Source: Nitrosopumilus sp.
GTDB lineage: Archaea; Thermoproteota; Nitrososphaeria; Nitrososphaerales; Nitrosopumilaceae
Direction of reading: 5' to 3'
Assembly: GCA_965207445.1 (NCBI GenBank)
Contig: CBDBLX010000002.1
Location: 96,001 to 160,000 of the forward strand
Length of the DNA stretch: 64,000 nucleotides
In this document: positions 13,593-50,926 of the stretch, piece by piece
How the letters are laid out: the number at the start of each line of letters is the position of its first letter
How positions within the stretch are numbered: position 1 is the stretch's first letter
Notes under the pieces: model-generated
Database searches by the model: none
The model's input: the letters and a program-made list of their open reading frames with translations, nothing else
Told to the model about the DNA's origin: nothing
Made by a program: the position numbers and the translations under genes

Positions 13593-15166
13593 TTAGGCCA
13601 AAAGCAGAAAGAGTGACGCCGGAACCATCACATATTCTGAAGAAACGTCGAGTCGATCTTTGGATATTACTAGACCCTTGCCACGCGTCTTGTTCAGAAC
13701 CCTACACATGCCGGCTAGGTCACGTCCCGGCCTGTTTCGATATTTTACTTCTATTGGCACCACCATCTTGCCACCGTCATCATATACAAAGTCAACCTCA
13801 CGACCCTTCTCCATGTGATAAAAGATTCTATAGTGGTGGTCAAAATTTTGTTTGCTGGGACTGGCATTAAAGGCCAATCTTGTCAGATGGTTGGCGACAA
13901 TACCCTCTATCAACACACTTTTGTTTTCGCTTGCATCAAGGTATTCTGATGATGCGTCAAAGTAGCCCCTAGATGCAGTCCATCCATTGAACATGTGAAA
14001 GAAAAACGGATCAACAAAGTAGATTTTTTTGTTACGGTGAAACATAGGGCTCCTGCTATCCATATTGTATCCATATATTGTAAGCAAAACGAAGAGGTTT
14101 GAGAGTGTCTGCACAGAGTCCTGTACCGTCTTGGGGGATCCGACATCTGCATTCTTGGCCATGTTGTTCCATGATGCATGGCTTCCTTGTGACTTTACAA
14201 CCTCCCTGCCAACGCGTTTTAACAGATTATTGTCTCTGCCAAGCCTTGACCACTCCCCCATGATGCTATCCATGTATGTACTGTACACGTTTTCGCGAAT
14301 AGGCAAAGTCGATGCTTGGGCATTTACGACAAAAGGAATTCCTCCGCTGTACATGTATTTGGACAAAAGATCGTCTAACAAGTGTTGATGCATGTGAGTG
14401 AGATCCATTGCACGATCTACTTCACCATTTGCCAGTTTGCCAAATGTTGTAAGCCGATCCTTGGATCTGAGAAAATACGAATCCACAATCGTTCTTATCT
14501 CCGAATCCATCGCACTGGCATACTCTGCAAACTTTAACGGAAAAAGAACTTTGTCGTGAGGTTCTGTTGTGCTTCCCCTTCGCCCGGGCAGCCGTTCAAT
14601 TGATCTCTGCAGGTCTATTGCATCAGAACCCGTCGCCATGACGGTACTGTTTGCAATACTGTTTCTATCCTTCAATCGTTTTATACCCTTTTGCCAGTTT
14701 GGGATGGTCGATACCTCATCTAGGAAGATGTAACGCCTCCCTTTATCCCACATACGACGTGTTAGTCTATTGTAAGACTCTACTACGTCGACCAGCTCAC
14801 TCGGTGTCTTGCACAGATCAAATGAATAGTAGAGTATGTTCCAAGGAGATGTTCCTTTCTTCAAGAATTCGCGTATCTGTAGTTTTAACAGGGTGGTCTT
14901 TCCAATCTGGCGTGTTCCCCTTAATGTATACACTACAGGATTGTCGGGCTCAAAATCATAGGTTATCTTGTGCATTATTCTCGGTACAATTTGCAACTTT
15001 GATCTCATCCACATTGTTATCTCCGGATCATCGTCAACCCAGTCAGAACCTCTCCACCATGGATTGTCCCTTATGATCTCACGTTCTACATCGAGATTAT
15101 CAAACTTTACTTGTCAGAACCTCTCCACCATGGATTGTCCCTTATGATGTCGCCATCTGCAATCAT
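13593..15166 (-). pseudogene. AAA_14 ATPase with DUF4143 (PD-(D/E)xK-like) C-terminus; 5' end disrupted by a 71-bp insertion
   Basis: GTRQIGKTT, FLDEV, ATGS, YSGGIP, KKIYFVDP, EVDFV..PIEVKY. The native start MIADGDIIRDNPWW at 15166 is frameshifted, and removing 71 bp restores a 500-aa ORF. The ORF track gives 13593-15014. Confidence 0.8.
15042..15148. repeat. 36-bp direct duplication flanking a 35-bp unique insert
   Basis: GTCAGAACCTCTCCACCATGGATTGTCCCTTATGAT at 15042-15077 and 15113-15148. Confidence 0.92.
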
Positions 15167-15203
15167 GCACTGTACTACTAAGTAATTTATATAAGAATTG
15201 TCA

Positions 15204-15275
15204 TCACACTACTAACTTAGTTATATACTAACTATCCTCACACTACTAACTTAGTTATATACTAACTATTCTCAC
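15204..15275. repeat. 34-bp tandem duplication upstream of the AAA ATPase
   Basis: TCACACTACTAACTTAGTTATATACTAACTAT(C/T)C twice. Confidence 0.85.
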
Positions 15276-15501
15276 GAGGCTGTCAAGTTACAGGAACAAG
15301 AATCCGCCGGTTAAACGCGTGACATGGAACAAGATCAGACTACTTTCAGCGGTAAGATCGCCTGAGTCCATTTCCAATCGTCAGTCTTACAGTAGGATCT
15401 AGGTTGTCAAGACTCAGTAGCGCCGCATCCGCATAAATTGATTTTCATATGGTATGTGGGTGTAGAGCAGTCATGCCCAGCCACGTAAACCCCTTCAGAC
15501 C

Positions 15502-18146
15502 GTAACTATTTTGCTTTTTGAAGCGCACACACATAAAGTAAAAGATCATGCGTGTTGTTCTGATCATGATGATCTCGGCATCGTATATTCATGTATGATC
15601 AATTGGCAACAATAACGCATAGTTGATTATAATATGCAGATGGATACACAAATGATTCTGTAGTTTTAGCCAGGGTTATATGATTTGCACAGCATATCAA
15701 AAAAAAACTCTCACCTCTGATCTTACCTGTTGCAAGCAGTGTGAATAATATTGAGTTGGCCTCCATACCACGAGACGTTCTGTTTCCATCATCACCACCA
15801 TCATTTTTTATGGATACAAATACTCGATTAGTTCGTTCAACATCATTGTTGTCTGGCGGCACATCCTTTATGTGTAAAAAGGTTCTCATGTTGTAGAGGT
15901 TGGTGCGTAATTGACATTTGGCCTGCCTGTGACCCTTCTGTGAGCTTGGTTTATTGTACATTCAATCTACAAAAGACTGAAATCTATCTATAGTGTGTTT
16001 TGTTTTTGAATATACATGTGTGTTTTAGCAGACAGATTATAGAACATGAAACGTGCAAGTGTGATGGCAGTCACTATCATTCGTATGATGGAATTTTTTG
16101 CCCTTTTTCATGAGCGCAGATAAATCTGTTCAGGACGTTGATATTCCATGCAATCGATAGTATTTTACCAAACCGCTTTTGGTTTTTGGCCAGGCGCATA
16201 CGACAGTGTAGCCTGTGATTCTTTGTTTCTTCTGCTCCAAATATTGCCTCGATAAGTGCGCGTTGTTTGTATGCATCTTGGTCAAAGATCTCCGCTGCTT
16301 TTTTTCTGCTTGGTTTGCCACGGTTTGTATGACCTGCGCCATCTGTGTGATTGCGCTGCTTTATGTTCGGTTTCATGTTTGCATTGAATATTGTCTCGCA
16401 ATTTTGATCCGAGTCGTATCCCTTGTCTCCGTTGAATAAGCGTTCTTCAATCTGTGTATAGTTTTTTACAAGAAAGTTGACCATATGTGGAAGCATTGAC
16501 GTGTCACTCACATTGCTTGGTGTTGTGTATGATGCAAGTATGATCTGGTGTCCGGTTATCGCAGTAATGTGATATTTTAGGTACATCTTGATGCGTGTCG
16601 GCTCAAAGTCTTGTAGTAAATGATTAGGTCTTTCTTGTTTTTCGTACCTGTCAGTCTCTACCCCACTACTGTCTACCCCAATCGGAGCGGTAGGTCCTTT
16701 TTTTACGTCTTGTTTACCGCTCTCAAAATCCTCGGATCCGTGCGTAAGTATGGTCTCTTTACCTTTTATCGGTACCGGATCTGTCCCAGATTTTTCAAGT
16801 TCAGTTAGACACATGTTGGCAGTATATGCCAAAATAGAATCAAGCCAGTCGAGATCAATTGTTTGCATATGTTTGGTTACCCAACTATAATCAGGCTTCG
16901 TCTCGTCAACCCATTCATCATGCATATGTCCAAGCTCATTTACCACATCACGAAAAGGAATATTTTTTGCAACTTTTAAAAGACACAAAAAATCCATCTT
17001 GTCACGAGAGTGTACCGGCTTGCATCCTCTATTTGTCTTCTTTTCCTTGCACGGATGTGGGTTTTTTCGTATCGCTGACAACAAGGTCTTGCGCATAAAA
17101 TCCGGCTCAGATTTGCGTGCCTGTTCGTAATACAGCCAATAACCTTCGCGTCGCTTGTGCTGCTCTGTCACTATACGGTCTGCCTCCATAATTTGTTCTT
17201 ATTTGAAACCCACACACTAAATTTACACAAACAACAAGCAGACATCACATTCATCACAAACCATGCATTGTAATGGGTGTCATTCTGTGTAGTATAGCAT
17301 GTTGTGGCAACCCACCATATGTCGTCGTTCCACCGCACTTCACAAACGATACGTTGATAACATTGGCTAGTCAACGTTGTTTAGCATCCCCTTTGGTCAT
17401 ATTCCAATTATTCAATTGGGGTGCCCCTATAAGTAACTTTTGGTATGCGCGCATATACTTTTATATATGAGCTTATTAAATATATGTACATAAAACTCTG
17501 GCGATATTTGCAGATGGCTTTGCAAGTACGATGCAGATGGCGATTTGATGAATTACGCACCAACCACCATGTTGTATCCTTTGCGCCTCAATCTCTTTTT
17601 TTTGAATCGGTTTATTATGCCCTCTTTGTCACCGTCCCAGTCTTTTTCCTTTGTCCAATCATTGTTCATTAGTTGGCGCAGTTGGCTGTCCAAACAATGA
17701 GGCCACTTGTCGTGTGCGAAGATCGCCTATTTCATCTGCTTTATAGAATTGTTTGAATATTCGAACTAACGTGGTGAGAAATCAGTGCTACACCTTTTGG
17801 ATTCACATATTTGATGTCTTTTTTTGGCAGTCGAGTCTGATGTGCCAAACACATCTGATGGATTATTCCAATGTGACTCTATGATGGATTAGAGTCGTGT
17901 CGTACTAGTCCCTTGTATTTTGGCAGGAATTTTTTGAGGGCGGATATTGTTTTGTCATCAATTATCTCTATTAGACAGCAGTCGTCTCCGAGCGCAATCA
18001 AACCACACACATGTTTTTTGTTTGCTCCAGGCCAGTCAAACTCATCACAGCCTAACTCGTTTTTACTCAAAATTTTTTAAACCAAAATTATCATAGTATA
18101 TAATCATAAGAATTTAAGTGTTCACTTCAAAAAGCAAAATAGTTAC
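15502..18146 (-). mobile_element. Degenerate IS66-family (ISBst12-like) element with a nested IS5-type transposase
   Basis: TIRs GTAACTATTTTGCTTTTTGAAG (15502) and CTTCAAAAAGCAAAATAGTTAC (ending 18146). Transposase fragments: LGCDEFDW..YKGLVRHD..HQMCLAHQTR (~17800-18070) and PPDNNDVERTNR (15599-15961). No TSD seen. Confidence 0.75.
16077..17189 (-). CDS. IS5/IS4-like DDE transposase (DDE_Tnp_1), apparently intact
   Basis: VDSSG, KYHITA, GDKGYDS, YKQRALIEAIFG. Confidence 0.85.
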   Translation of the reverse strand: MEADRIVTEQHKRREGYWLYYEQARKSEPDFMRKTLLSAIRKNPHPCKEKKTNRGCKPVHSRDKMDFLCLLKVAKNIPFRDVVNELGHMHDEWVDETKPDYSWVTKHMQTIDLDWLDSILAYTANMCLTELEKSGTDPVPIKGKETILTHGSEDFESGKQDVKKGPTAPIGVDSSGVETDRYEKQERPNHLLQDFEPTRIKMYLKYHITAITGHQIILASYTTPSNVSDTSMLPHMVNFLVKNYTQIEERLFNGDKGYDSDQNCETIFNANMKPNIKQRNHTDGAGHTNRGKPSRKKAAEIFDQDAYKQRALIEAIFGAEETKNHRLHCRMRLAKNQKRFGKILSIAWNINVLNRFICAHEKGQKIPSYE

Positions 18147-18276
18147 ACATTTTGGGTATTTTCTTACATATCGTGTTTATCATTCAGATTTACATAAATT
18201 CGATCACAACAACGATCGATATTGCTGTATATGTATGCATACTTACAGAATAGTGGTTTAACTGTTACGTGTCCCT

Positions 18277-18555
18277 TTACCCGCGTTTCGGGTACTTTGG
18301 GCGTCCGGCCCTCAAGCTTGCGTTCTGGTCGGAAAGGTCCCTCAACCTTGCAATCAGGTGAACCACATAGTCCGCCATCCTTTCGACGCCCTCCCGGTCC
18401 ATGCCGGTCATCATACGGACGAGCTGCTCGCGTATTATCTCAGGCTGGACCACTGGCCCCTCGCCGGGCATGACCTCAGTCGCCTTGAAGTACTCGTACG
18501 GAACCGGCGTCTTTGACGTTTTTTTCGTCGATTTCGCGGCTTTTTTCTTATTCAT
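18277..18555 (-). CDS. Hypothetical protein in GC-rich island
   Basis: 92-aa ORF, basic N-terminus, downstream of 18580-19236 on the same strand. Confidence 0.45.
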   Translation of the reverse strand: MNKKKAAKSTKKTSKTPVPYEYFKATEVMPGEGPVVQPEIIREQLVRMMTGMDREGVERMADYVVHLIARLRDLSDQNASLRAGRPKYPKRG

Positions 18556-18579
18556 GGTAGTTCAAAAAAGTGAAAGGGG

Positions 18580-19236
18580 CTATGCCCAGAACCAGCTCCA
18601 ACTGCCTGTCTGCCTGCCGTCATAGTCCACCGTGACGTGGACTATGTAAAGGCCCCCAAGCGTGGCGCATTCCAGCGGGTACTTGTCTACCGGGGGCACC
18701 TCCAAGTTGGCGTGGCACCCGGATCCGTCCCAGACGTTCCTGATGTCAAGGTACACATTGGTTTCCCAGCCGTGTTCCTCGCAGTTCGGGGAATCTCCGG
18801 ACGTCAGTATGCTCGGGAACCACTGGTCGACACGGAGGTTGATGTTGCCGTCATAGTCAACCTTGTAGTGCCACGTCTCGTTGGCATCGTCACATCCCTT
18901 GTTGACCCCGTACATGTTGAACAGGTCCCTCCACTGGGTGCTCTGCTGCTGGGTGTCGCTTCTCGTGGCCTGTGTCGTCTGGACGTCGGAGACGTCATCG
19001 TGCAGCCTCTGGAGCACGTCCTGCTGTTCGGACTTTAGGCTCTCCCTAATCTGCACGTCTTCGGCCTGCTGTATCTGCGCTTCCAGGGACTGCACTTGCC
19101 GTATCAGTTCCTTTTTTTCGCTGCCTGACAAGCCTGTCGCTTCCTCGGCCACGGCACGATCCATTGCGCCAAGCGGCAGGATCATTGCGGTGATTATGGG
19201 CGCGGACAGTGCAGTCTTTACGTTTTGCAAAGTCAT
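18580..19236 (-). CDS. Exported hypothetical protein (signal peptide, coiled coil, 4 Cys), GC-rich
   Basis: Thaumarchaeal-type signal MTLQNVKTALSAPIITAMILPLGAMDRAVA, Q/E-rich helix, W-rich beta-type C-terminus. Confidence 0.65.
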   Translation of the reverse strand: MTLQNVKTALSAPIITAMILPLGAMDRAVAEEATGLSGSEKKELIRQVQSLEAQIQQAEDVQIRESLKSEQQDVLQRLHDDVSDVQTTQATRSDTQQQSTQWRDLFNMYGVNKGCDDANETWHYKVDYDGNINLRVDQWFPSILTSGDSPNCEEHGWETNVYLDIRNVWDGSGCHANLEVPPVDKYPLECATLGGLYIVHVTVDYDGRQTGSWSWFWA

Positions 19237-19391
19237 TGAACGGGTATGATGGTATCGTCTACTTAAGGCTTCATGTAAATCTGAATATTCATACCTGTAT
19301 TTTCGTGTGAGTTAACTTATTGTGGCATAATCATAAGATCATATATCTTTAAGATTTATCATCAAGTGATAGACCAATAATTTTACACAAT

Positions 19392-19754
19392 TCATCCCAG
19401 ACATTGTACACGCAGATTCCACGTCTCAACACAACTAAATATTACACAGAGATTTTCTGCCCCCTTGTCACTCTTCAACTGCAGACGACTGTTCCTCTGA
19501 CTTGTTACAGGTTTCATTGATTGCTCTCCAAGATTTGTGGTAGAGTAGACAAATGGATACAAAACAAATGTAAAAAGTTCGGGCGCTGCGTTTTCTAGTG
19601 TGGCGCCAAACTCTTTCATTATCTCATATCTGCTTTTTTTGTATCTAGATATTATACCACACAACCATTTTTGAAGTTTTGTAACATATGAACTCTTTGT
19701 GTGACCCAAACTCTTTGGATGCAATAACGAAATCACATATTTGTATTTGGTCAT
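19392..19754 (-). pseudogene. IS66-family transposase C-terminal remnant
   Basis: LFTFVLYPFVYSTTNLGEQSMKPVTSQR..SRLQLKSDKGA..SCVETW. Confidence 0.7.
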
Positions 19755-19882
19755 ATTTCTATCTGTATATTGAGATAGTGCATGCGATGCATTTGAGTAG
19801 GCGTTATTTTTGAATGATCATATTAGTCATGGATCTTGGTTCACACATAAAATTTATAGACATTGCCCGTATCAATACATAC

Positions 19883-20038
19883 ATGAGCAAAGGTGGAGAA
19901 GTGGCACGTCGTTTAAAAGACAAACTACCACAACATGCAGATGATCTGGAATACATTGCGCTCAGTTTTGATCGCACAGAACAGCTTTTGAAGGAAGCCG
20001 ATGAACGATGGGACAGCCTAAATGCAGGTACAGCATAG
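19883..20038 (+). CDS. Small hypothetical protein
   Basis: MSKGGEVARRLKDKLPQHADDLEYIALSFDRTEQLLKEADERW..., plausible helical composition. Confidence 0.4.
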   Translation: MSKGGEVARRLKDKLPQHADDLEYIALSFDRTEQLLKEADERWDSLNAGTA

Positions 20039-20264
20039 TTAAATCGGGAGGTTTTTTAAAAGAATTTTAAAAAGCAAATCACATTTGTTTCACAAGTGTG
20101 CAAGACCCAATACAGAGCTAAATTACAATTTTTTGAAGAAAAACGTCGCAAAACTAAAGGTGAACGTTGGATTTTATTAGAAAAGTGATTATATTTCAAG
20201 GGTAAATATTGCCATGATTATCCAGATTAAAAAAAGTATTAAAATGATCTAATATTGAGATTTA

Positions 20265-20926
20265 CTAATTAGAATTTTTGCCACCATTTTCTCGGTAAAA
20301 TTTACAATCATCACGTATCTGGCATACCCCACACATAGCGAGACGGGCTTGCAAATATTCTGCCCATACATTACAAACGTGTCGTTTATGCGCAACCAAT
20401 ATCGTTTGGGTATCAAATCCATTAGCGCTTGTTCGGTATCTTCGGGTGTCTTTGTATTTACAAGTCCTAACCTATTTGATATTCGATGTACATGTATGTC
20501 AACTGGTATGGCAGGCCGCTCAAATGCATACACTAAAACACAGTTGGCAGTCTTGCGCCCTACACCGGGTAATGATACAAGTTTGTCAATATCATCTGGT
20601 ACGACACCACCATATTGTTTCTCTATAATCTTGGCAACATCGATAATTCTACGCGCCTTTACATGATAAAATCCAATAGGCATTACAATACGCTCAACGT
20701 CTTTTATTCGAGCAGTTGCAAGTTCTTTGGAATTTGTATATCTGGCAAAGAGTTTCTTGACTACCTTTGTAGTGTTCTCATCTTTTGTACGCGCAGATAA
20801 AATTGTCCCAATCAGGATACTAAATGGACCTCCAGTCTCTGCATCATGTAGCTCTCTGAGCGCAGTCATTCTAGGAGGTTTGACGGCGTTCATAGTCTTT
20901 GTCATGCCATCAAGTATCTTTTTCAT
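20265..20926 (-). CDS. nth: Endonuclease III with a 1-nt frameshift near 20339 in the 4Fe-4S motif
   Basis: ILSARTKD, HhH LPGVGRKTA, VDIHVHRI. After CKPVS the motif continues in another frame as MCGVCQIRDDCKFY. Confidence 0.88.
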
Positions 20927-20976
20927 GCATATAGTATTCATGCAAGTGTTATATCTGTAACATTTAGAGTACACGT

Positions 20977-22149
20977 GTGGAGTTAACAGAATCAGAAGAA
21001 AGAGCACTTGCAGGTGAGAGTGGCGAGGTTATGCAGATGGCTTATCGCATACTAGTTGCAACTGGCAAGGCAACTGATGCAGACAGACTAGTACCCGTGC
21101 AATGGGCACACCTATCAGGTGTCAACTATAATACCATAGGAGATGCAGGTGAGGAATTTCTAAAGAGTTTAAGCCACAAGGGTGCCAGGGTGCGCGTAAA
21201 GACAACATTAAATCCTATGGGATTTGATGCTGACAGTGTATCTAGATATGGATTAGATGATGAGTTTATTGCAAAACAAGAGTCAATAGCAAAATCATAC
21301 ACGATAATGGGCGTGACACCGTCATTCTCATGCATACCATATGAGATATTCAAGATGCCTATCAAAAATTCACAAATAGCATTTGCAGAGAGTAATGCTG
21401 CAATATATGCAAATTCATTTGATCATTTAAAAACGAATAAAGAAAGTGCATTTAGCGCACTTGCAAGCGCCATAACTGGAAAGAGTCCATACTCTGATCT
21501 ACGACGTGATGAAGAGTCAGATGAAATACCAGTTGTGCGTATGAGGATAAAAGAACCAGATGAGCTAGCATATGGGATGCTCGGATACTTTGCAGGCAAA
21601 GCCACTGATACGTCAGTAGTTGATATATCAGGCGTCTTGTCATCTGCAATGGATAGACGGCAATGCAAAGCTATGTGCGGGGGCATGGGAACATCAGGTA
21701 CCTGTGCAAAGTTTCGGTTTGTGAGTAATAATGATAAAAAAAATGTAGAAAAGATAGATTTTGATCATGATGCAATGCAACAAGTCAAAGACGAGTTAAA
21801 CACAGCAGAGAATGGAGATGTAGTCATACTTGGCAGCCCACAGCTTGGATTATGGGAGATATTAGATTTAATCAAACGACTGAAGGGCCGCTCATTTCAA
21901 AAGAGATGTATGATATTTTGTCCTAGAATAGTAAAAGAGCAAGCACAAGAACAGATTCAAGTGTTAGAAAAGGCAGGATGTGAGGTCATGGCAGATTGTT
22001 GCGCGTGCCTCTCGCCACTAGTTGAGACAGATGATATAGATACCGTGACTACAAATAGTATCAAGGGTGCGTTTTATCTTAACAATGCAAGTGGTGTTGG
22101 AGTAGAGTTGAAATCATTATCTGAAATCCTAGAGGACGAGACTGTATAA
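20977..22149 (+). CDS. Aconitase X large subunit (phosphomevalonate dehydratase large subunit)
   Basis: AHLSGVNYNTIGDAG, TTLNP, SCIPY, AESNA, GSPQ, TNSIKGAFY. Confidence 0.85.
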   Translation: MELTESEERALAGESGEVMQMAYRILVATGKATDADRLVPVQWAHLSGVNYNTIGDAGEEFLKSLSHKGARVRVKTTLNPMGFDADSVSRYGLDDEFIAKQESIAKSYTIMGVTPSFSCIPYEIFKMPIKNSQIAFAESNAAIYANSFDHLKTNKESAFSALASAITGKSPYSDLRRDEESDEIPVVRMRIKEPDELAYGMLGYFAGKATDTSVVDISGVLSSAMDRRQCKAMCGGMGTSGTCAKFRFVSNNDKKNVEKIDFDHDAMQQVKDELNTAENGDVVILGSPQLGLWEILDLIKRLKGRSFQKRCMIFCPRIVKEQAQEQIQVLEKAGCEVMADCCACLSPLVETDDIDTVTTNSIKGAFYLNNASGVGVELKSLSEILEDETV

Positions 22150-22579
22150 TGAATCATACAATTATTCAAAAACCCCAAAAATGCAAAATTCTAGTAAGTG
22201 GTAAGACTGATGGCATCATACTACAATCACACACACCGATAAACTTTCTAGGCGCAGTGAATAAAAAGACTGGTTTGATCACTGATAAAAAACACGAATT
22301 ATATAAAAAAAGCATTAAAAATGTCATACTAGTATTCCATCGGGGGCAGGGAGTAGTGTGGGAGCATATACCATATACTCTATCAAAGCAAACAAAGTAG
22401 CCCCACATGCTATGATATGCCAAAGAGCTGACTTGACAATTGCAACAGGGTGCGCCGTTGCAGATATTCCACTTTTAGTCATTGATGATGATAATATATT
22501 GAATATGCTCAATACAGGATCACACGTCACACTAGATACAGAGTCAGATAATTTTATTACATTAACAAATGATGATTAA
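22149..22579 (+). CDS. Aconitase X small (swiveling) subunit with a 1-nt frameshift near 22338
   Basis: PINFLGAVNKKTG..HELY..ILVF joins (P)SGAGSSVGAYTIY..AP.AMIC in the adjacent frame. Confidence 0.82.
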
Positions 22580-22736
22580 GTATAATAATAATGATCATTA
22601 AAATAATCAGTATTAGAGTAATATTTAGTATCAATTAAGACAGATGCAGTCTTTGTTAAAGTCCATTTACAAAACAGTCAATCTCAATAAAATGATCAAA
22701 AATTACTATACAAAGTAAAAAAAAGACGTCACAAGA

Positions 22737-23459
22737 TTATCTCTTTTTTGTCAAGTATAGCGCACCCACAATAATTCCTATCCCTGCTGCCACATAAAAT
22801 GGAAATAATGCAAATACATTTTGAGAAGGATCACCTGATAGAAATTCGACTAGAACGGTACCAGATGCCACGGCAGGCGGGTCAGTTGATCCCTCCATTC
22901 CATGTGTAGAAAAAGATACAGGTGCAAACAACCCAATATCCAAATTAGATACTACAATTCTTGCGCCATTGTTTACAGTCATACCAGCACGCTCCGTATA
23001 TGACACGATGACTTTAGCCTGCGGATACCACCCACGCTCCAAATCTTTGTGAATTATTATATATCCTTCATCAGGCGTCTGTACTGCTACCCAAAACCTA
23101 TAATCTGGATTTGCACCCATTCCAATTTCTACAAACTCGTCTTGTGTCTCTTTGTCATATAATCTAATTACGGCGTTTCCATTAGGATGCGCATATATCA
23201 AATCATTATCTATTGTAGCTTGCCAGCTTATGATATGGGATTTTTCCAGATCTTGAATCGGGGCAACGCGCAACACACGGTTGAACTCGGATGCATCAAT
23301 AGTAATCTCCTCTATGGTAAGAGACGGATTCTTGATATCTGTGTCAGTGTCTAGTTGTGTGTTATGCTCAGTAGCAACAGAATCAGGTATGGCAGATAAA
23401 GCTACAAGTGTGAGGGCGATAATACTAGTAGTAATGTAAGATGATACCAAACGTGACAA
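22737..23459 (-). CDS. Conserved thaumarchaeal exported, membrane-anchored protein
   Basis: N-terminal signal peptide and C-terminal TM helix followed by KKR. Confidence 0.7.
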   Translation of the reverse strand: MSRLVSSYITTSIIALTLVALSAIPDSVATEHNTQLDTDTDIKNPSLTIEEITIDASEFNRVLRVAPIQDLEKSHIISWQATIDNDLIYAHPNGNAVIRLYDKETQDEFVEIGMGANPDYRFWVAVQTPDEGYIIIHKDLERGWYPQAKVIVSYTERAGMTVNNGARIVVSNLDIGLFAPVSFSTHGMEGSTDPPAVASGTVLVEFLSGDPSQNVFALFPFYVAAGIGIIVGALYLTKKR

Positions 23460-24262
23460 TTATCTCACATGAAGTTTCTTTCTCAATTAATTAAATTGTA
23501 CTTTGCGTTGTTCGGGAATTGTATATTTTAGTTAACTGTGTGAGACCCTAAAACCAACCCCTACTATGAATCAGAGTACCCGGCAAGCATTTTAGGGAAG
23601 GTATAACTCGGACTGAATTGTTCAAGATATTCCCTGATAATCAGTTTGCAATGCAGTGGTTTGAGAGGCGCATATGAAATGACGGTAGAGGATGCCCAAC
23701 TTGCGAGAATCCATACACCACAGTATCCACACAAAAGACGACGCCTTACTATTGTTACAAGTGCCGGCACTTTTTCTCAGTCAAAAAAGGTACTGTAATG
23801 AAGCAGCCACACATATCATATCAGAATGGGCTATTGGAACCTATCTTGTTGTAACTAACCTGAGGTGTCTCAAGTATGAAAATTCATAGAGATTTAGGAA
23901 TGACCCAAAAGTCTGCATGATTCATGCTTACAAGGCTCCTCGAATCTTGGAAGCAGTTGGCAGGCGTTGATAAGATGGATGGGACTAGAGACTGATGAGG
24001 CGTTCGTTGGTGGCTCAGATAAGAAGAATCGTCATGCAGACAAGAAAGTCACCAAACCAAAGACTGCTGTAGGTGGTGTCAAAGACCGTACATCAAACAA
24101 GGTTACTGTAAAGCCAGTGCCAGAAATTACAAAGACATGCTTGGAAGATTTCATTGAAAAGAATGTGACCGAGGATGCCAAAAAATACACTGATGAAAAT
24201 AGGATATATTCTGACTTGAGGAATCACGAGTCCGTAAACCACTTTGTAGGAGAGTATGTAAG

Positions 24263-24370
24263 GGGACAGGCGCATACAAACGGCACGGAGTTATTCTAGC
24301 TGAGAGACTAGAAGCTAAAAGAATAGAAAGAGAAAGGGACAGGCGCATACAAACGGCACGGAGTTATTCT
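24263..24370. repeat. 35-bp direct duplication flanking a 38-bp unique insert
   Basis: GGGACAGGCGCATACAAACGGCACGGAGTTATTCT at 24263-24297 and 24336-24370. Confidence 0.92.
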
Positions 24371-24383
24371 GGTCCATGATGAA

Positions 24384-24489
24384 GTGCGGTTATGATGGAT
24401 GTACCATCACATATCCGACTGCTCTTCTAGTATGATCACGGTCAGTTGTATAACGTGCGGTTATGACGGATGTACCATCACATATCCGA
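24384..24489. repeat. 35-bp direct duplication (1 mismatch) flanking a 36-bp unique insert
   Basis: GTGCGGTTATGA(T/C)GGATGTACCATCACATATCCGA at 24384-24418 and 24455-24489. Confidence 0.92.
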
Positions 24490-24567
24490 GGATCATTTGT
24501 ACCGATACGTTAATGAATCCACCGGACGACACAACATTAGGAACATGGATAGTGTAGAGATGATGGG

Positions 24568-26237
24568 TAGTAGTTTCATTAAAGATCCGATAGTTTTTAG
24601 ACATTCTTATAATCATATATTTGGAAATCAAGCAGGCCCCATGTTGTAATCCATACATGCTCCATGATTTTTCCGTGCCATGTCCATGCCAGCCGTGTAT
24701 TCAGGCGTGGCAAAAAGTATGTGCGCAGCCGTCCTGATCATAGTGCGATCTGTGCGTCGCACAGCCTCACCCGGACCCACCTAGTTCGCGTAATATGCAG
24801 TTCATGCAGCCCGGAGTTCTGGTATTGGCGCGTTGTTCTTTGCGTCCTGTATGGCATTGCGCATGTACTCTAGCAGCCTGACTGTACCCACCTCGCCTTT
24901 TTCCATCATGTGTAGTATGGACTTTTGAATCTCTGGAAAACCACCTTTGTAGTATCTGCCTGCTAGTGCGCGCTTTATCTCGCGCCATTGGATCTCTATG
25001 GGATTGTGCTGAGGCGTATATGGCGGCAAGTACCATAGTGCAACTTGTCCTCTTGTCTGTTCCAGATACTGCTTGATGCCTTTGGACTTGTGCGCAGATG
25101 CATTGTCACATATGACAAATACCTTGCCGTACTTTTCTCGGAGCACCTCCAACAACTTTATGACGTTTACAGTATTCGCACTGTCGCAAAAGTGCAGGTG
25201 GCATGTACCGGCCCCGAGTGCACCCAGCATTTTCATACTTGTTTTTGAAAAGTTGACCTTTACAGTCTCAGAGCCTCCCCGGGTATATAGTCCGCGCGCG
25301 ACATACGGCGAGTTTGTGATTGCAGAGGCGTCCATGCAGAACACCTCATAGCCGGCGCGGGCGTGCGCCATGATGGCGCGTATTGTGTCGTGTACATAAT
25401 GTAGTTCTTCTAATGGACTGGCAGACTTGTGGTGAATTGGTCTGGGTATTCTTATTGAAAAGCCCATCCTGTGAGCTAGCGCCAGGGCCCCGGTCCACGT
25501 GTACTGGACGTCAAAAATGTTTGCCAGATGCAATGCAAACAAGGCGGCAGTCCATGTCCCACGCTCAAAGCCGCACTGCATCGGCTCTCTACTCAGATCG
25601 GTCTTTGCCTGTTCTTGTTGTTCTTTTGTGAGTCTGCACGGCCTGCCAGGGCTCTTGCGGTCGTACCTGCCCTCCAAGCCCTCTGACTGCAGTCTATTGA
25701 GCCACTCAGATATGACACCCTGACTACGTCCGAGCTGGGCGGCTATTACAGACTCACTCTTGCCCTTTTTTCGTCCAACTGCCGCCTGCAGTCTGTCCCG
25801 GGACTTACCCGGAGGCTCGTTGCGGTAGGCGGTTTTTAGATCTTCCAGGGACACGTCGGGCATGAACCCGTCCCCTTTTCCTACATAGGCCGTCTTCAAA
25901 AAATACGCACCTCGTCGATGCCGCAAGACGATCTGCCTGCAGAGTCGTTAAATATGGTATCGGCGAGTACTACTCGATGTACCATTTTTTCGTTTGACAA
26001 CAAACACTAATGGCCACATCGCCTTTTGACACTCGAGGTCAAATTAGTTAAACCAAATGATCAAAAGTTACTCTAAATACCTGCCACGGGATATACACCC
26101 TAATTCCTCGTCTCTCTTCTGGCTACCACACGGTATCTGCTACACATAGTGCCAATTACGTCTATTTTTCCACTCAGTACACAACTGCCTAGCCGAAATC
26201 GCCTGCAAAAACCATCGGATCTTTAATGAAACTACTA
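24568..26237. mobile_element. TIR-bounded 1.67-kb element containing an IS630-type transposase, nested in the IS1595 transposase
   Basis: 24-bp perfect TIR TAGTAGTTTCATTAAAGATCCGAT and 4-bp TSD TGGG on both sides. Confidence 0.85.
24802..25863 (-). CDS. IS630-family transposase
   Basis: HTH region, GRPCRL, WT motif, MDAS, ICDNASAH, LPPYTPQHNPIE. Likely start ATG 25863 (ORF track extends to 25926). Confidence 0.9.
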   Translation of the reverse strand: MPDVSLEDLKTAYRNEPPGKSRDRLQAAVGRKKGKSESVIAAQLGRSQGVISEWLNRLQSEGLEGRYDRKSPGRPCRLTKEQQEQAKTDLSREPMQCGFERGTWTAALFALHLANIFDVQYTWTGALALAHRMGFSIRIPRPIHHKSASPLEELHYVHDTIRAIMAHARAGYEVFCMDASAITNSPYVARGLYTRGGSETVKVNFSKTSMKMLGALGAGTCHLHFCDSANTVNVIKLLEVLREKYGKVFVICDNASAHKSKGIKQYLEQTRGQVALWYLPPYTPQHNPIEIQWREIKRALAGRYYKGGFPEIQKSILHMMEKGEVGTVRLLEYMRNAIQDAKNNAPIPELRAA

Positions 26238-26332
26238 TGGGTACGATGGCCGAGAACATGGCGGGAAGCAAGCTTACATACAATACGCTCATAGAACCAG
26301 GCAGGCTTGATGGAGATGTAGTCTGAATGTTA

Positions 26333-26453
26333 TTACAGAGAAGTTACAGAGAAGTTACAGAGAAGTTACAGAGAAGTTACAGAGAAGTTACAGAGAAGTT
26401 ACAGAGAAGTTACAGAGAAGTTACAGAGAAGTTACAGAGAAGTTACAGAGAAG
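26333..26453. repeat. Tandem repeat (TTACAGAGAAG) x11
   Basis: Perfect 11-bp units between the IS1595 transposase end and the R-M gene. Confidence 0.95.
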
Positions 26454-50427: not shown

Positions 50428-50825
50428 TTCACGACTGGAGTGGAAATGAAGGGGTCAAATCACATATGTTGACAGTGTTAACATCAATCTTCACGACTGG
50501 AGTGGAAATGAAGGGGTCAAAATCAAGGACTTTGAGTTTAATTTTAACAAAAAATTAACTATTGTTAACTAGTGACCCCCACACCTTCATTTCCACTCCA
50601 CGCTTTCTATTTTTTTTTTTTTGAAAATAGATATTATATTTAATTATTAATAATAATAATTAATAATTAATAATTATAATAAAAGAAATAATAAAAGAAA
50701 AACCAAAGTAATATTAAAGTAAATTATTCTGGAGTGGAAATGAAGGTGTGTCTGTTGTATTTTTGTAATCTAGAGTACCTACAGTTCTGAGTGGTAGCGT
50801 CTGTGGAAATGAAGGTGTGTCTGTT
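50428..50825. other. Replication origin oriC: five ORB-like boxes around an AT-rich DUE
   Basis: (CTG)GAGTGGAAATGAAGG(GG/TG) at ~50435, ~50497, 50581-50600 (inverted), ~50729 and ~50803. Very AT-rich 50610-50725. Directly upstream of cdc6. Confidence 0.88.
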
Positions 50826-50926
50826 ATACTTTTGTAATATGTAGTGTGATGTGTGATAATGAATGATTCTGAATAATAGTTATGATGTATATAGTGAATG
50901 TTATTACACAATTCAGTAATACTAGT

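What the first reader, a model, noticed from the sequence alone, without database searches (positions are those of the whole stretch)
15042..24489. Three CRISPR-spacer-like insertions in ordinary genes: 35-36 bp target duplication plus 35-38 bp unique insert
Seen: three unrelated sites share one geometry. (1) 15042-15148: 36-bp duplication around a 35-bp insert. (2) 24263-24370: 35-bp duplication around a 38-bp insert. (3) 24384-24489: 35-bp duplication (1 mismatch) around a 36-bp insert. The duplicated sequences differ from each other and are native coding sequence (the AAA_14 NPWW motif; IS1595 QAHTNG and GYDG..YHHIS). The inserts have no TIRs and I saw no match for them in the window. Deleting the insert plus one copy restores the local coding sequence. 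All three duplications begin with G on the plus strand. Established: Cas1-Cas2 integrates a fixed-length spacer and duplicates a repeat-length target, and off-target integration has been shown experimentally; IS TSDs and slippage do not give this size pattern. Inference: these are fixed ectopic spacer acquisitions, or products of an unknown short-fragment integrase. All three hit mobile or accessory genes, so either an integrase is silencing MGEs or only such hits survive selection.
Basis: partly seen in the sequence, partly recalled or inferred. Interest (0 to 1): 0.9.

Follow-up and report, generated by a model that had tools for sequence, protein, structure and literature searches.

The report
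Off-target CRISPR spacer insertion scars
Three short insertions in ordinary genes are scars left when this archaeon's CRISPR memory-writing enzyme pasted spacer-sized DNA at the wrong place, and the genome and its relatives carry dozens more.

Summary
All three sites are real. Each is a 35-36 bp target duplication around a unique 35-38 bp insert (period 71, 73, 71). Homologues without the insert show clean 71- and 73-base gaps.

They belong to about 40 such events in this 2.6 Mb archaeal genome. Isolated two-copy repeats peak sharply at spacing 71-74 (42 pairs, against 0-2 at other spacings). The genome's own type I-G CRISPR array, 16 kb upstream of the window, has the same geometry: 36-bp repeat, 35-39 bp spacers, period 71-75. 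The only Cas1 is a Cas4g/Cas1g fusion beside the leader.

Three inserts are copies of other chromosomal loci. In 400-kb samples, three relatives with the orthologous integrase have 8-15 such sites, including 3- and 5-repeat neo-arrays. Three Cas1-less relatives have 0, 1 and 0.

Best reading: fixed off-target Cas4/1-Cas2 spacer integrations (confidence 0.9). MGE silencing is not supported. Sites are not enriched in multicopy DNA, and nine 72-bp sites lie in long frames that stay open; for the four with Pfam domains, the insertion lies outside them.

The mechanism is known from E. coli (Nivala 2018); this natural scale is not, as far as my searches show. An earlier scan note on other DNA of this genome reached the same reading.

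The parts
15042..15077 (.). Site 1, first copy of the 36-bp target duplication. It lies in the 5' end of an AAA_14/DUF4143 ATPase gene on the minus strand.
   Evidence: The C1 paralogue has a single copy.
15078..15112 (.). Site 1, 35-bp unique insert (spacer-like).
   Evidence: No other match in the genome. No exact match in viral contigs.
15113..15148 (.). Site 1, second copy of the duplication.
13593..15014 (-). AAA_14 + DUF4143 ATPase ORF (473 aa), as left after the 71-bp insertion cut off its native N-terminus.
   Evidence: Pfam AAA_14 E 5e-23 and DUF4143 E 2.7e-14. The open frame grows from 506 to 514 codons when the block is removed in silico.
24263..24297 (.). Site 2, first copy of the 35-bp duplication, inside an IS1595-type transposase pseudogene.
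   Evidence: Pfam DDE_Tnp_IS1595 E 6.3e-14 for 23967-24296.
24298..24335 (.). Site 2, 38-bp unique insert.
   Evidence: No other match in the genome. No exact match in viral contigs.
24336..24370 (.). Site 2, second copy of the duplication.
   Evidence: In G108, subject ranges 25910-26306 and 26272-26355 overlap by 35 bp.
24384..24418 (.). Site 3, first copy of the 35-bp duplication, 13 bp after site 2.
24419..24454 (.). Site 3, 36-bp unique insert.
   Evidence: No other match in the genome. No exact match in viral contigs.
24455..24489 (.). Site 3, second copy of the duplication (1 mismatch to the first).
   Evidence: Logan contigs 24341-24597 in runs X2 and X3 span the whole of site 3 with 0 differences.
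23967..24560 (+). IS1595-family transposase pseudogene fragment that hosts sites 2 and 3. It also carries a 1-base frameshift that is present in both copies of the site 3 duplication, so the frameshift is older than the insertion.

Best explanation
The three structures are fixed off-target (ectopic) spacer integrations made by the genome's own type I-G adaptation module, a Cas4g/Cas1g fusion plus Cas2.

Inferred mechanism, from established Cas1-Cas2 chemistry: the integrase, loaded with a processed prespacer of about 33-38 bp, makes two staggered strand-transfer attacks about 36 bp apart on opposite strands of a non-CRISPR target. Gap repair then copies the 36-bp interval, giving duplication - insert - duplication with the same period as a repeat-spacer unit of the real array.

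Target choice is nearly sequence-independent. Selection then removes the harmful hits. What remains is scars in pseudogenes, IS copies and intergenic DNA, plus in-frame 72-bp (24 aa) insertions; in the four genes with Pfam domains these lie outside the domains.

Shown here: the geometry, the empty alleles, the presence of the integrase, the self-derived inserts, and co-occurrence with the integrase across relatives. Inferred: that this enzyme did it, and the chemistry.
For: 1. Geometry equals the native array. The array at C2:68641-79634 has 122 repeats of 36 bp and spacers of 35-39 bp, with period counts 71:10, 72:36, 73:52, 74:19, 75:3. Ectopic pairs have period counts 71:10, 72:20, 73:8, 74:4, and duplication length peaks at 36-37.
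2. The only Cas1 in the genome is a Cas4g/Cas1g fusion (NCBIfam 731.5 bits, cut-off 560). It lies next to Cas2 and the leader end of the array. Csb1, Csb2, Cas3g and the Cas3-extension protein lie at the other end.
3. Empty alleles give precise insertion. Site 1 is shown and sites 2 and 3. Five further sites show split hits whose subject ranges overlap by 35-39 bp (1099770, 1278431, 1708312, 1668421, 1593464).
4. Three of 49 inserts are copies (32/33, 35/36, 33/35 identical) of other chromosomal loci with unrelated flanks. None of 120 array spacers has such a match. This is as expected if self-targeting spacers are purged from the array but tolerated at silent ectopic sites (hypergeometric p about 0.02, my arithmetic).
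5. Comparative control, same scan on 400 kb each. Relatives with the orthologous fusion: G047 has 9 sites, G009 has 15 entries (about 12 after dropping one double count and two collagen-like repeats), G022 has 8. Relatives with no PF01867 match: G068 0, G002 1, G010 0.
6. Relatives hold neo-arrays of 3, 3 and 5 copies of non-CRISPR sequence with unique 32-37 bp spacers.
7. Insert 5' ends are T/C-rich and G-poor (T .40, C .34, G .11), like the plus-strand 5' end of array spacers (T .38, C .33, G .09).
8. G. sulfurreducens Cas4/1-Cas2 gives predominantly 36-bp spacers (PMC6547450, passages read).
Against: - No enzyme activity was tested.
- The ectopic period is on average about 0.6 bp shorter than the array's.
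- In the three cases bounded by a protospacer, the duplication looks like 36-39 bp and the insert 33-37 bp, so the ruler is looser than at the array.
- The three self protospacers share no PAM. At most one has the TTN reported for I-G, and only under one reading of an ambiguous boundary.
- The pooled insert-end composition does not match both ends of array spacers.
- One Cas1-less relative (G002) has one scar-like site.
- Most inserts (46 of 49) have no identified source.
- Read support is from Logan contigs that may come from the same sample as the assembly. They break inside the perfect duplications of sites 1 and 2.
Confidence: 0.9

Rival explanations
1. An unknown short-fragment integrase or transposase unrelated to Cas1 inserts about 36-bp fragments with a 36-bp target duplication.
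For: Target sequences show no likeness to the CRISPR repeat: 13.62 against 13.66 matches of 35 in controls. The three self protospacers share no PAM.
Against: Both lengths match the resident array. Scars are present in 3 of 3 sampled relatives with the Cas4/1 orthologue and nearly absent (0, 1, 0) in 3 without any Cas1. No known IS gives 36-bp duplications with inserts that all differ.
Confidence: 0.04
2. Replication slippage, tandem duplication or templated repair made the duplications, and the middle part diverged or was copied in by a polymerase.
For: Three inserts are templated from elsewhere in the chromosome.
Against: A tandem duplication would repeat the flanking 36 bp as well, but the inserts are unrelated to the flanks. 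The size peak is only 4 bp wide and equals the CRISPR period. Cas1-less relatives lack it.
Confidence: 0.03
3. The units are working mini-CRISPR arrays (domesticated or MGE-borne) that give crRNAs.
For: Relatives have 3- and 5-repeat neo-arrays. The site 3 target can form a 6-bp stem.
Against: Every site has a different 'repeat', made of native coding sequence. As a set these have no excess hairpin potential (stem 3.8 against 4.0, p=0.94; energy p=0.38) and no likeness to the repeat that the type I-G Csb2 protein (NCBIfam model cas5_6_GSU0054) would be expected to recognise. Expression was not assessed.
Confidence: 0.02
4. Assembly artefact.
For: Perfect 35-36 bp repeats break short-read graphs. 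Logan contigs stop inside the duplications of sites 1 and 2.
Against: Site 3 is spanned whole by contigs in two runs. The same structures occur in four separately assembled genomes. Several sit in reading frames that stay open.
Confidence: 0.01

Closest known systems
Off-target ('non-canonical') spacer integration giving neo-CRISPR loci, E. coli type I-E (Nivala, Shipman & Church 2018, Nat Microbiol 3:310). The paper is not held. I know it from passages in 10.1101/148544, PMC6698737, PMC7054753 and PMC9456107.
   Same: A spacer-sized insert flanked by a duplication of repeat length at non-CRISPR sites. Repeated use of a site can grow a new array, as seen here in relatives.
   Different: There, Cas1-Cas2 was over-produced, the events were rare, and integration was favoured near IHF-like motifs (passage). 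Natural evidence was called circumstantial and limited to two other species (passage). Here the events are natural and fixed, about 40 per genome, found in at least four species of one archaeal genus, made by a type I-G Cas4/1 fusion, at targets unlike the repeat.
In-vitro off-target integration by Pyrococcus furiosus Cas1-Cas2 (PMC6698737, passages read)
   Same: An archaeal integrase inserts spacers at non-CRISPR DNA with a set spacing.
   Different: The off-target sites there shared sequence features with the CRISPR repeat. Here no likeness to the repeat is found, only a weak symmetric bias: A at the 6th base in 35 of 64 ends, T-poor at -2.
Geobacter sulfurreducens type I-U/I-G Cas4/1-Cas2 adaptation (PMC6547450, passages read)
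   Same: The same fusion family (NCBIfam cas4g_cas1g) and a 36-bp predominant spacer.
   Different: That work scored array expansion only, and 'off-target' does not occur in its text (0 occurrences). It reports TTN PAM selection, which the three self-derived ectopic inserts do not show.
Ectopic spacer acquisition within arrays (Streptococcus thermophilus, PMC7999890; search listing and abstract start only)
   Same: Integration away from the leader-proximal repeat.
   Different: Those events are still at true CRISPR repeats inside the array, not in ordinary genes.

Membership tests
Off-target Cas1-Cas2 spacer integration (neo-CRISPR) | Target duplication of the same length as the resident CRISPR repeat | tested here: met
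   Repeat is 36 bp. Duplication length peaks at 36-37 in 75 sites from four genomes. Empty-allele overlaps are 35-39 bp.
Off-target Cas1-Cas2 spacer integration (neo-CRISPR) | Insert length within the resident spacer length range | tested here: met
   Array spacers are 35-39 bp. Ectopic period minus 36 gives 35-38 for 42 sites. The three window inserts are 35, 38 and 36.
Off-target Cas1-Cas2 spacer integration (neo-CRISPR) | An apparently intact Cas1-Cas2 integrase in the genome | tested here: met
   Cas4g/Cas1g, 565 aa with no stops, and Cas2 beside the leader.
Off-target Cas1-Cas2 spacer integration (neo-CRISPR) | Precise insertion shown by an empty allele | tested here: met
Off-target Cas1-Cas2 spacer integration (neo-CRISPR) | Insert derived from a protospacer elsewhere | tested here: inconclusive
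   3 of 49 inserts have a self protospacer. The three window inserts have none in the genome, and no exact match in viral contigs.
Off-target Cas1-Cas2 spacer integration (neo-CRISPR) | Dependence on the integrase | tested here: inconclusive
   Correlation only. Relatives with the fusion have 9, about 12 and 8 sites per 400 kb; Cas1-less relatives have 0, 1 and 0. These genomes are kin, and no genetics or biochemistry was possible.
Type I-G CRISPR-Cas | Cas4-Cas1 fusion, Csb1/Cas7g, Csb2 and Cas3g | tested here: met
   NCBIfam: cas4g_cas1g 731.5 bits (cut-off 560), cas7_GSU0053 75.9 (38), cas5_6_GSU0054 275.3 (45), cas3_GSU0051 735.1 (400), adjac_Cas3_IG 131.5 (65).
Type I-G CRISPR-Cas | Large subunit Cas8g/Csx17 | not tested
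   I did not look for it.
IS or MITE insertion with target-site duplication | A conserved element sequence with terminal inverted repeats | tested here: not met
   All inserts differ from one another and have no second copy, except within copied host elements.
Tandem duplication or slippage | The inserted part is homologous to adjacent sequence | tested here: not met
   Best match to flanks is 0.51 against 0.53 in controls. The only outlier is C2:55916, which I dropped as MITE-like.
Bona fide CRISPR array | Three or more copies of one conserved repeat with a leader | tested here: not met
   Each window site has two copies of its own native sequence. Relatives have 3- and 5-copy neo-arrays.

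The most novel reading that the evidence does not exclude
The type I-G Cas4/1-Cas2 integrase of this archaeal genus is inherently promiscuous in nature. It acts as a lineage-wide endogenous insertional mutagen with three consequences:
- it seeds new CRISPR-like arrays from ordinary sequence (up to 5 repeats seen);
- it adds 24-residue in-frame segments to proteins;
- it leaves, at silent sites, a record of the unselected prespacer pool, including self DNA.

This would give a natural system in which the birth of CRISPR arrays and the fitness cost of adaptation can be measured directly.
Probability: 0.6. Interest if true: 0.75.

Novelty: new member of a known kind. Interest (0 to 1): 0.66.

Why it matters
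Off-target integration by Cas1-Cas2 has been shown mainly with over-produced E. coli proteins and in vitro. How often it happens in nature, and what it costs, is largely unknown.

Here one genus provides dozens of dated, sequence-resolved natural events per genome, with built-in controls: empty paralogues and Cas1-less relatives. This makes several things measurable:
- the intrinsic target preference and ruler of a type I-G integrase;
- the spectrum of prespacers before interference selection;
- how purifying selection filters insertions, keeping in-frame 72-bp hits outside Pfam domains in the four genes where domains were found;
- the first steps of new array formation.

It is also a practical warning. 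Two-copy 'CRISPR' calls and 24-residue insertions in proteins of such genomes may be integrase scars.

Tried and rejected
- Likeness of targets to the CRISPR repeat: none, 13.62 against 13.66 matches of 35.
Best stem 3.8 against 4.0, p=0.94; folding energy p=0.38. Site 3 itself does have a 6-bp stem.
- Enrichment in multicopy or mobile DNA: 15 of 44 against 25%, p=0.22.
- Excess of the in-frame period 72 relative to the array: 20 of 45 against 36 of 120, p=0.097, suggestive only. It is not repeated in G022, where 1 of 8 sites has period 72.
- My first idea that the variable base next to the 35 invariant repeat bases comes from the spacer or PAM: wrong. It is a block polymorphism of a 36-bp repeat.
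- A common PAM at the three self protospacers: none seen.
- Exact matches of the three window inserts in viral contigs: 0, 0, 0.
- Naming the organism through Cas4/1 relatives in genome contigs: the only hit was a Dehalococcoidia MAG at 57% identity.
- Sequencing runs: no RNA holder listed. Only Logan contigs could be laid; they stop inside the perfect duplications of sites 1 and 2, so those junctions are neither confirmed nor denied.
- Run X5, from another study, shows one contig (depth 2) joining 24297 to 24455. This is what a doubly empty allele would give, but the letters between are not known.
- C2:55916 was dropped as a MITE-like repeat.
- Four pairs at period 69, one of them at window 50734, were left undecided.
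- The Nivala 2018 paper could not be read.
Full report
**Observation.**
- Site 1: 15042-15077, then a 35-bp insert, then 15113-15148. Period 71, copies identical.
- Site 2: 24263-24297, then a 38-bp insert, then 24336-24370. Period 73, copies identical.
- Site 3: 24384-24418, then a 36-bp insert, then 24455-24489. Period 71, one mismatch.

Site 1 lies at the 5' end of an AAA_14/DUF4143 ATPase gene on the minus strand. Sites 2 and 3 lie 13 bp apart in an IS1595-type transposase pseudogene (Pfam; translations).

**Empty alleles.** A 99%-identical paralogue of the ATPase locus on the second contig (C1) aligns with one clean 71-column gap that removes the insert and one copy. For sites 2 and 3, two diverged homologues align with two gaps, of 73 and 71 columns. 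One is a paralogue in the same genome (C2:1141454-1141970, 68-72% identical). The other is in relative G108. In G108 the two hits overlap by exactly 35 bp on the subject. A 1-base frameshift of the transposase gene is present in both copies of the site 3 duplication, so the gene was already broken when the insertion happened.

**Genome-wide picture.** The window is C2:96001-160000 of a 2.61 Mb, two-contig genome with 39.6% G+C. It is an archaeon by its eIF2 and primase genes. I scanned the whole genome for direct repeats 60-89 bp apart and dropped short-period sequence. That left 10, 20, 8 and 4 pairs at spacings 71, 72, 73 and 74. Spacing 69 has 4 pairs and every other spacing has 0-2. A first, stricter scan gave 9, 17, 6 and 5. 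One pair (C2:55916) is a MITE-like repeat and was dropped. Two pairs are copies of the same event carried on duplicated DNA. About 40 independent events remain. Copies differ by 0 (17 sites), 1 (17), 2 (8) or 3 (2) bases, so the process has run over a long time and older scars must have faded below detection.

**The matching machinery.**
- Sixteen kb upstream of the window lies one large CRISPR array (C2:68641-79634, 122 repeats). An IS insertion splits it.
- The repeat is 36 bp: 35 invariant bases plus one base that is G in the old half and C in the leader half. This is a block pattern that only duplication from the leader end would give.
- Spacers are 35-39 bp, with period counts 71:10, 72:36, 73:52, 74:19, 75:3.
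- At the AT-rich leader end sit cas2 and a cas4-cas1 fusion. At the other end sit csb1, csb2, cas3 and a Cas3-extension gene. All pass the NCBIfam type I-G cut-offs.
- This is the only Cas1-family match in the genome.
- The I-G/I-U Cas4/1-Cas2 of G. sulfurreducens inserts mostly 36-bp spacers (PMC6547450, passages).

**Where the inserts come from.**
- They are not diverged copies of nearby sequence.
- Of 49 inserts searched against the genome, three have a second copy elsewhere with unrelated flanks:
  - 293255-293287 matches 542544-542576 (32 of 33);
  - 2374130-2374165 matches 1108489-1108524 (35 of 36);
  - 1629843 onward matches 1891738-1891772 on the other strand (33 of 35).
- None of 120 array spacers has such a match. 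This fits purging of self-targeting spacers from the expressed array and their tolerance at silent sites.
- The three self protospacers share no PAM.
- The three window inserts have no match in the genome and no exact match in viral contigs.

**Targets.**
- The duplicated segments do not resemble the CRISPR repeat.
- They are not enriched for hairpins, although the site 3 target has a 6-bp stem.
- They are not enriched in multicopy DNA: 15 of 44 sites, in a genome where 25% of random windows are multicopy.
- I pooled 32 well-bounded unique sites from four genomes and read both strands from the boundary. This shows a weak two-fold symmetric bias. A is the sixth base of the duplication in 35 of 64 ends (expected 30.5%, p=3e-4). 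T is rare two bases outside (4 of 64, p=2e-4). The A bias is seen separately in this genome (19 of 32) and in the relatives (16 of 32). I treat it as tentative.

**Selection.**
- Nine 72-bp events lie in long reading frames that stay open, of 245 to 983 codons. They add 24 residues: 12 duplicated and 12 new.
- Six of these were scanned against Pfam, and in the four with domains above the curated cut-off the insertion falls outside the domains:
  - after GSDH (domain 46-365, insertion 445-481);
  - between 2_5_RNA_ligase2 and a Metallophos_2 match just under Pfam's cut-off;
  - before CAP;
  - before the copper-binding domain.
- Orthologues of the GSDH protein in G036 and G002 lack exactly these 24 residues.
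- Events with periods 71, 73 or 74 sit in pseudogenes, IS copies or between genes.
- The excess of period 72 over the array's share is only suggestive (p=0.097).
Silencing of mobile elements does not.

**Relatives.** Four of 60 sampled congeners carry an orthologous Cas4/1 fusion at 61-71% identity. I ran the same scan on 400 kb from each of six genomes. All three Cas1-less genomes gave no PF01867 match.

| Genome | Cas1 | Sites in 400 kb |
|---|---|---|
| G047 | Cas4/1 fusion | 9, at periods 72-73 |
| G009 | Cas4/1 fusion | 15 entries at 71-75 (about 12 after dropping one double count and two collagen-like repeats) |
| G022 | Cas4/1 fusion | 8, at 72-74 |
| G068 | none | 0 |
| G002 | none | 1 |
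| G010 | none | 0 |

The first 400 kb of this genome, with the array cut out, gave 9. The arrays of the three positive relatives have the same 36-bp repeat family and periods of 71-76.

G047 has two three-copy arrays and G009 one five-copy array. Each is built from ordinary sequence with unique 32-37 bp spacers. The G009 array is followed by a further integration offset into its last copy. That repeated use of one spot parallels sites 2 and 3 of the window, which are 13 bp apart. These genomes are kin and the sample is small, so this is correlation, not proof.

**Reads.** Only Logan contigs were available, and the main holders may be the sample the assembly came from. Contigs in two runs span site 3 whole without a difference. 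Contigs end inside the perfect duplications of sites 1 and 2, as de Bruijn graphs do. One low-depth contig from a different study joins 24297 to 24455, which is the pattern a doubly empty allele would give.

**What is known.** Off-target integration that can seed new arrays was shown in E. coli by Nivala et al. 2018. I could not read that paper and rely on passages in citing papers. One of them says natural evidence was circumstantial and limited to two other species. My searches of the held library found no report of dozens of fixed natural events, of in-frame protein insertions made this way, or of off-target integration by a type I-G module. Papers outside the library cannot be excluded.

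I reached my counts independently.

**Verdict.** The mechanism is of a known kind, in a new system and at a scale not reported before.

Noticed in passing
window 15174-15275: Three tandem copies of a 34-bp unit lie just upstream of the ATPase gene. The C1 paralogue has more copies (period 34 over about 134 bp at C1:112954).
   Followed up: partly
window 50734-50838 (C2:146734): A fourth scar-like pair in the window, with period 69: a 36-bp duplication with 2 mismatches and a 33-bp insert. It is one of four pairs at period 69 that I left undecided.
   Followed up: no
outside the window, C2:74600-76830: The CRISPR array is split by an IS-like element of about 2.2 kb with inverted ends, inserted into a repeat.
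   Followed up: no
outside the window, C2:68641-79634: The 36th base of the repeat is G (with a few T or A) in the leader-distal 53 repeats and C in the remaining 69, with a single T among them. This is a repeat variant that arose once and was propagated by leader-end duplication.
   Followed up: yes
whole genome: About 25% of random 236-bp windows are multicopy. An IS630-like DDE_3 element (window 24802-25926) has 12 or more copies. The 60 sampled congeners are 0.7-2.4 Mb against 2.6 Mb here.
   Followed up: partly
C2:479466, 1094704, about 1511840 and about 2232665, compared with C2:1891800-1892405: One scar is present in four copies of a repeated element, while a fifth, more diverged copy is empty (subject overlap 35 bp). 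The scar therefore spread with the element after integration.
   Followed up: partly
G009 C1:238778-239170 (L084-L085): A five-copy neo-array of a 36-37 bp non-CRISPR sequence with 35-37 bp spacers. It is followed by a period-74 duplication that starts inside the last copy.
   Followed up: partly
G002 C1:106316: A single scar-like pair (38 + 34, period 72) in a relative with no Cas1-family match. It may be a relic of a lost CRISPR-Cas system, or chance.
   Followed up: no
C2:542544-542576 and C2:543089: The self protospacer of the insert at 293255 lies only about 500 bp from another ectopic site. This may be coincidence or a locally break-prone region.
   Followed up: no
L133 (OZ253670.1): The nearest Cas4/1 relative found in genome contigs is in a Dehalococcoidia MAG (57% identity). 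This hints at transfer of the adaptation module between domains.
   Followed up: no
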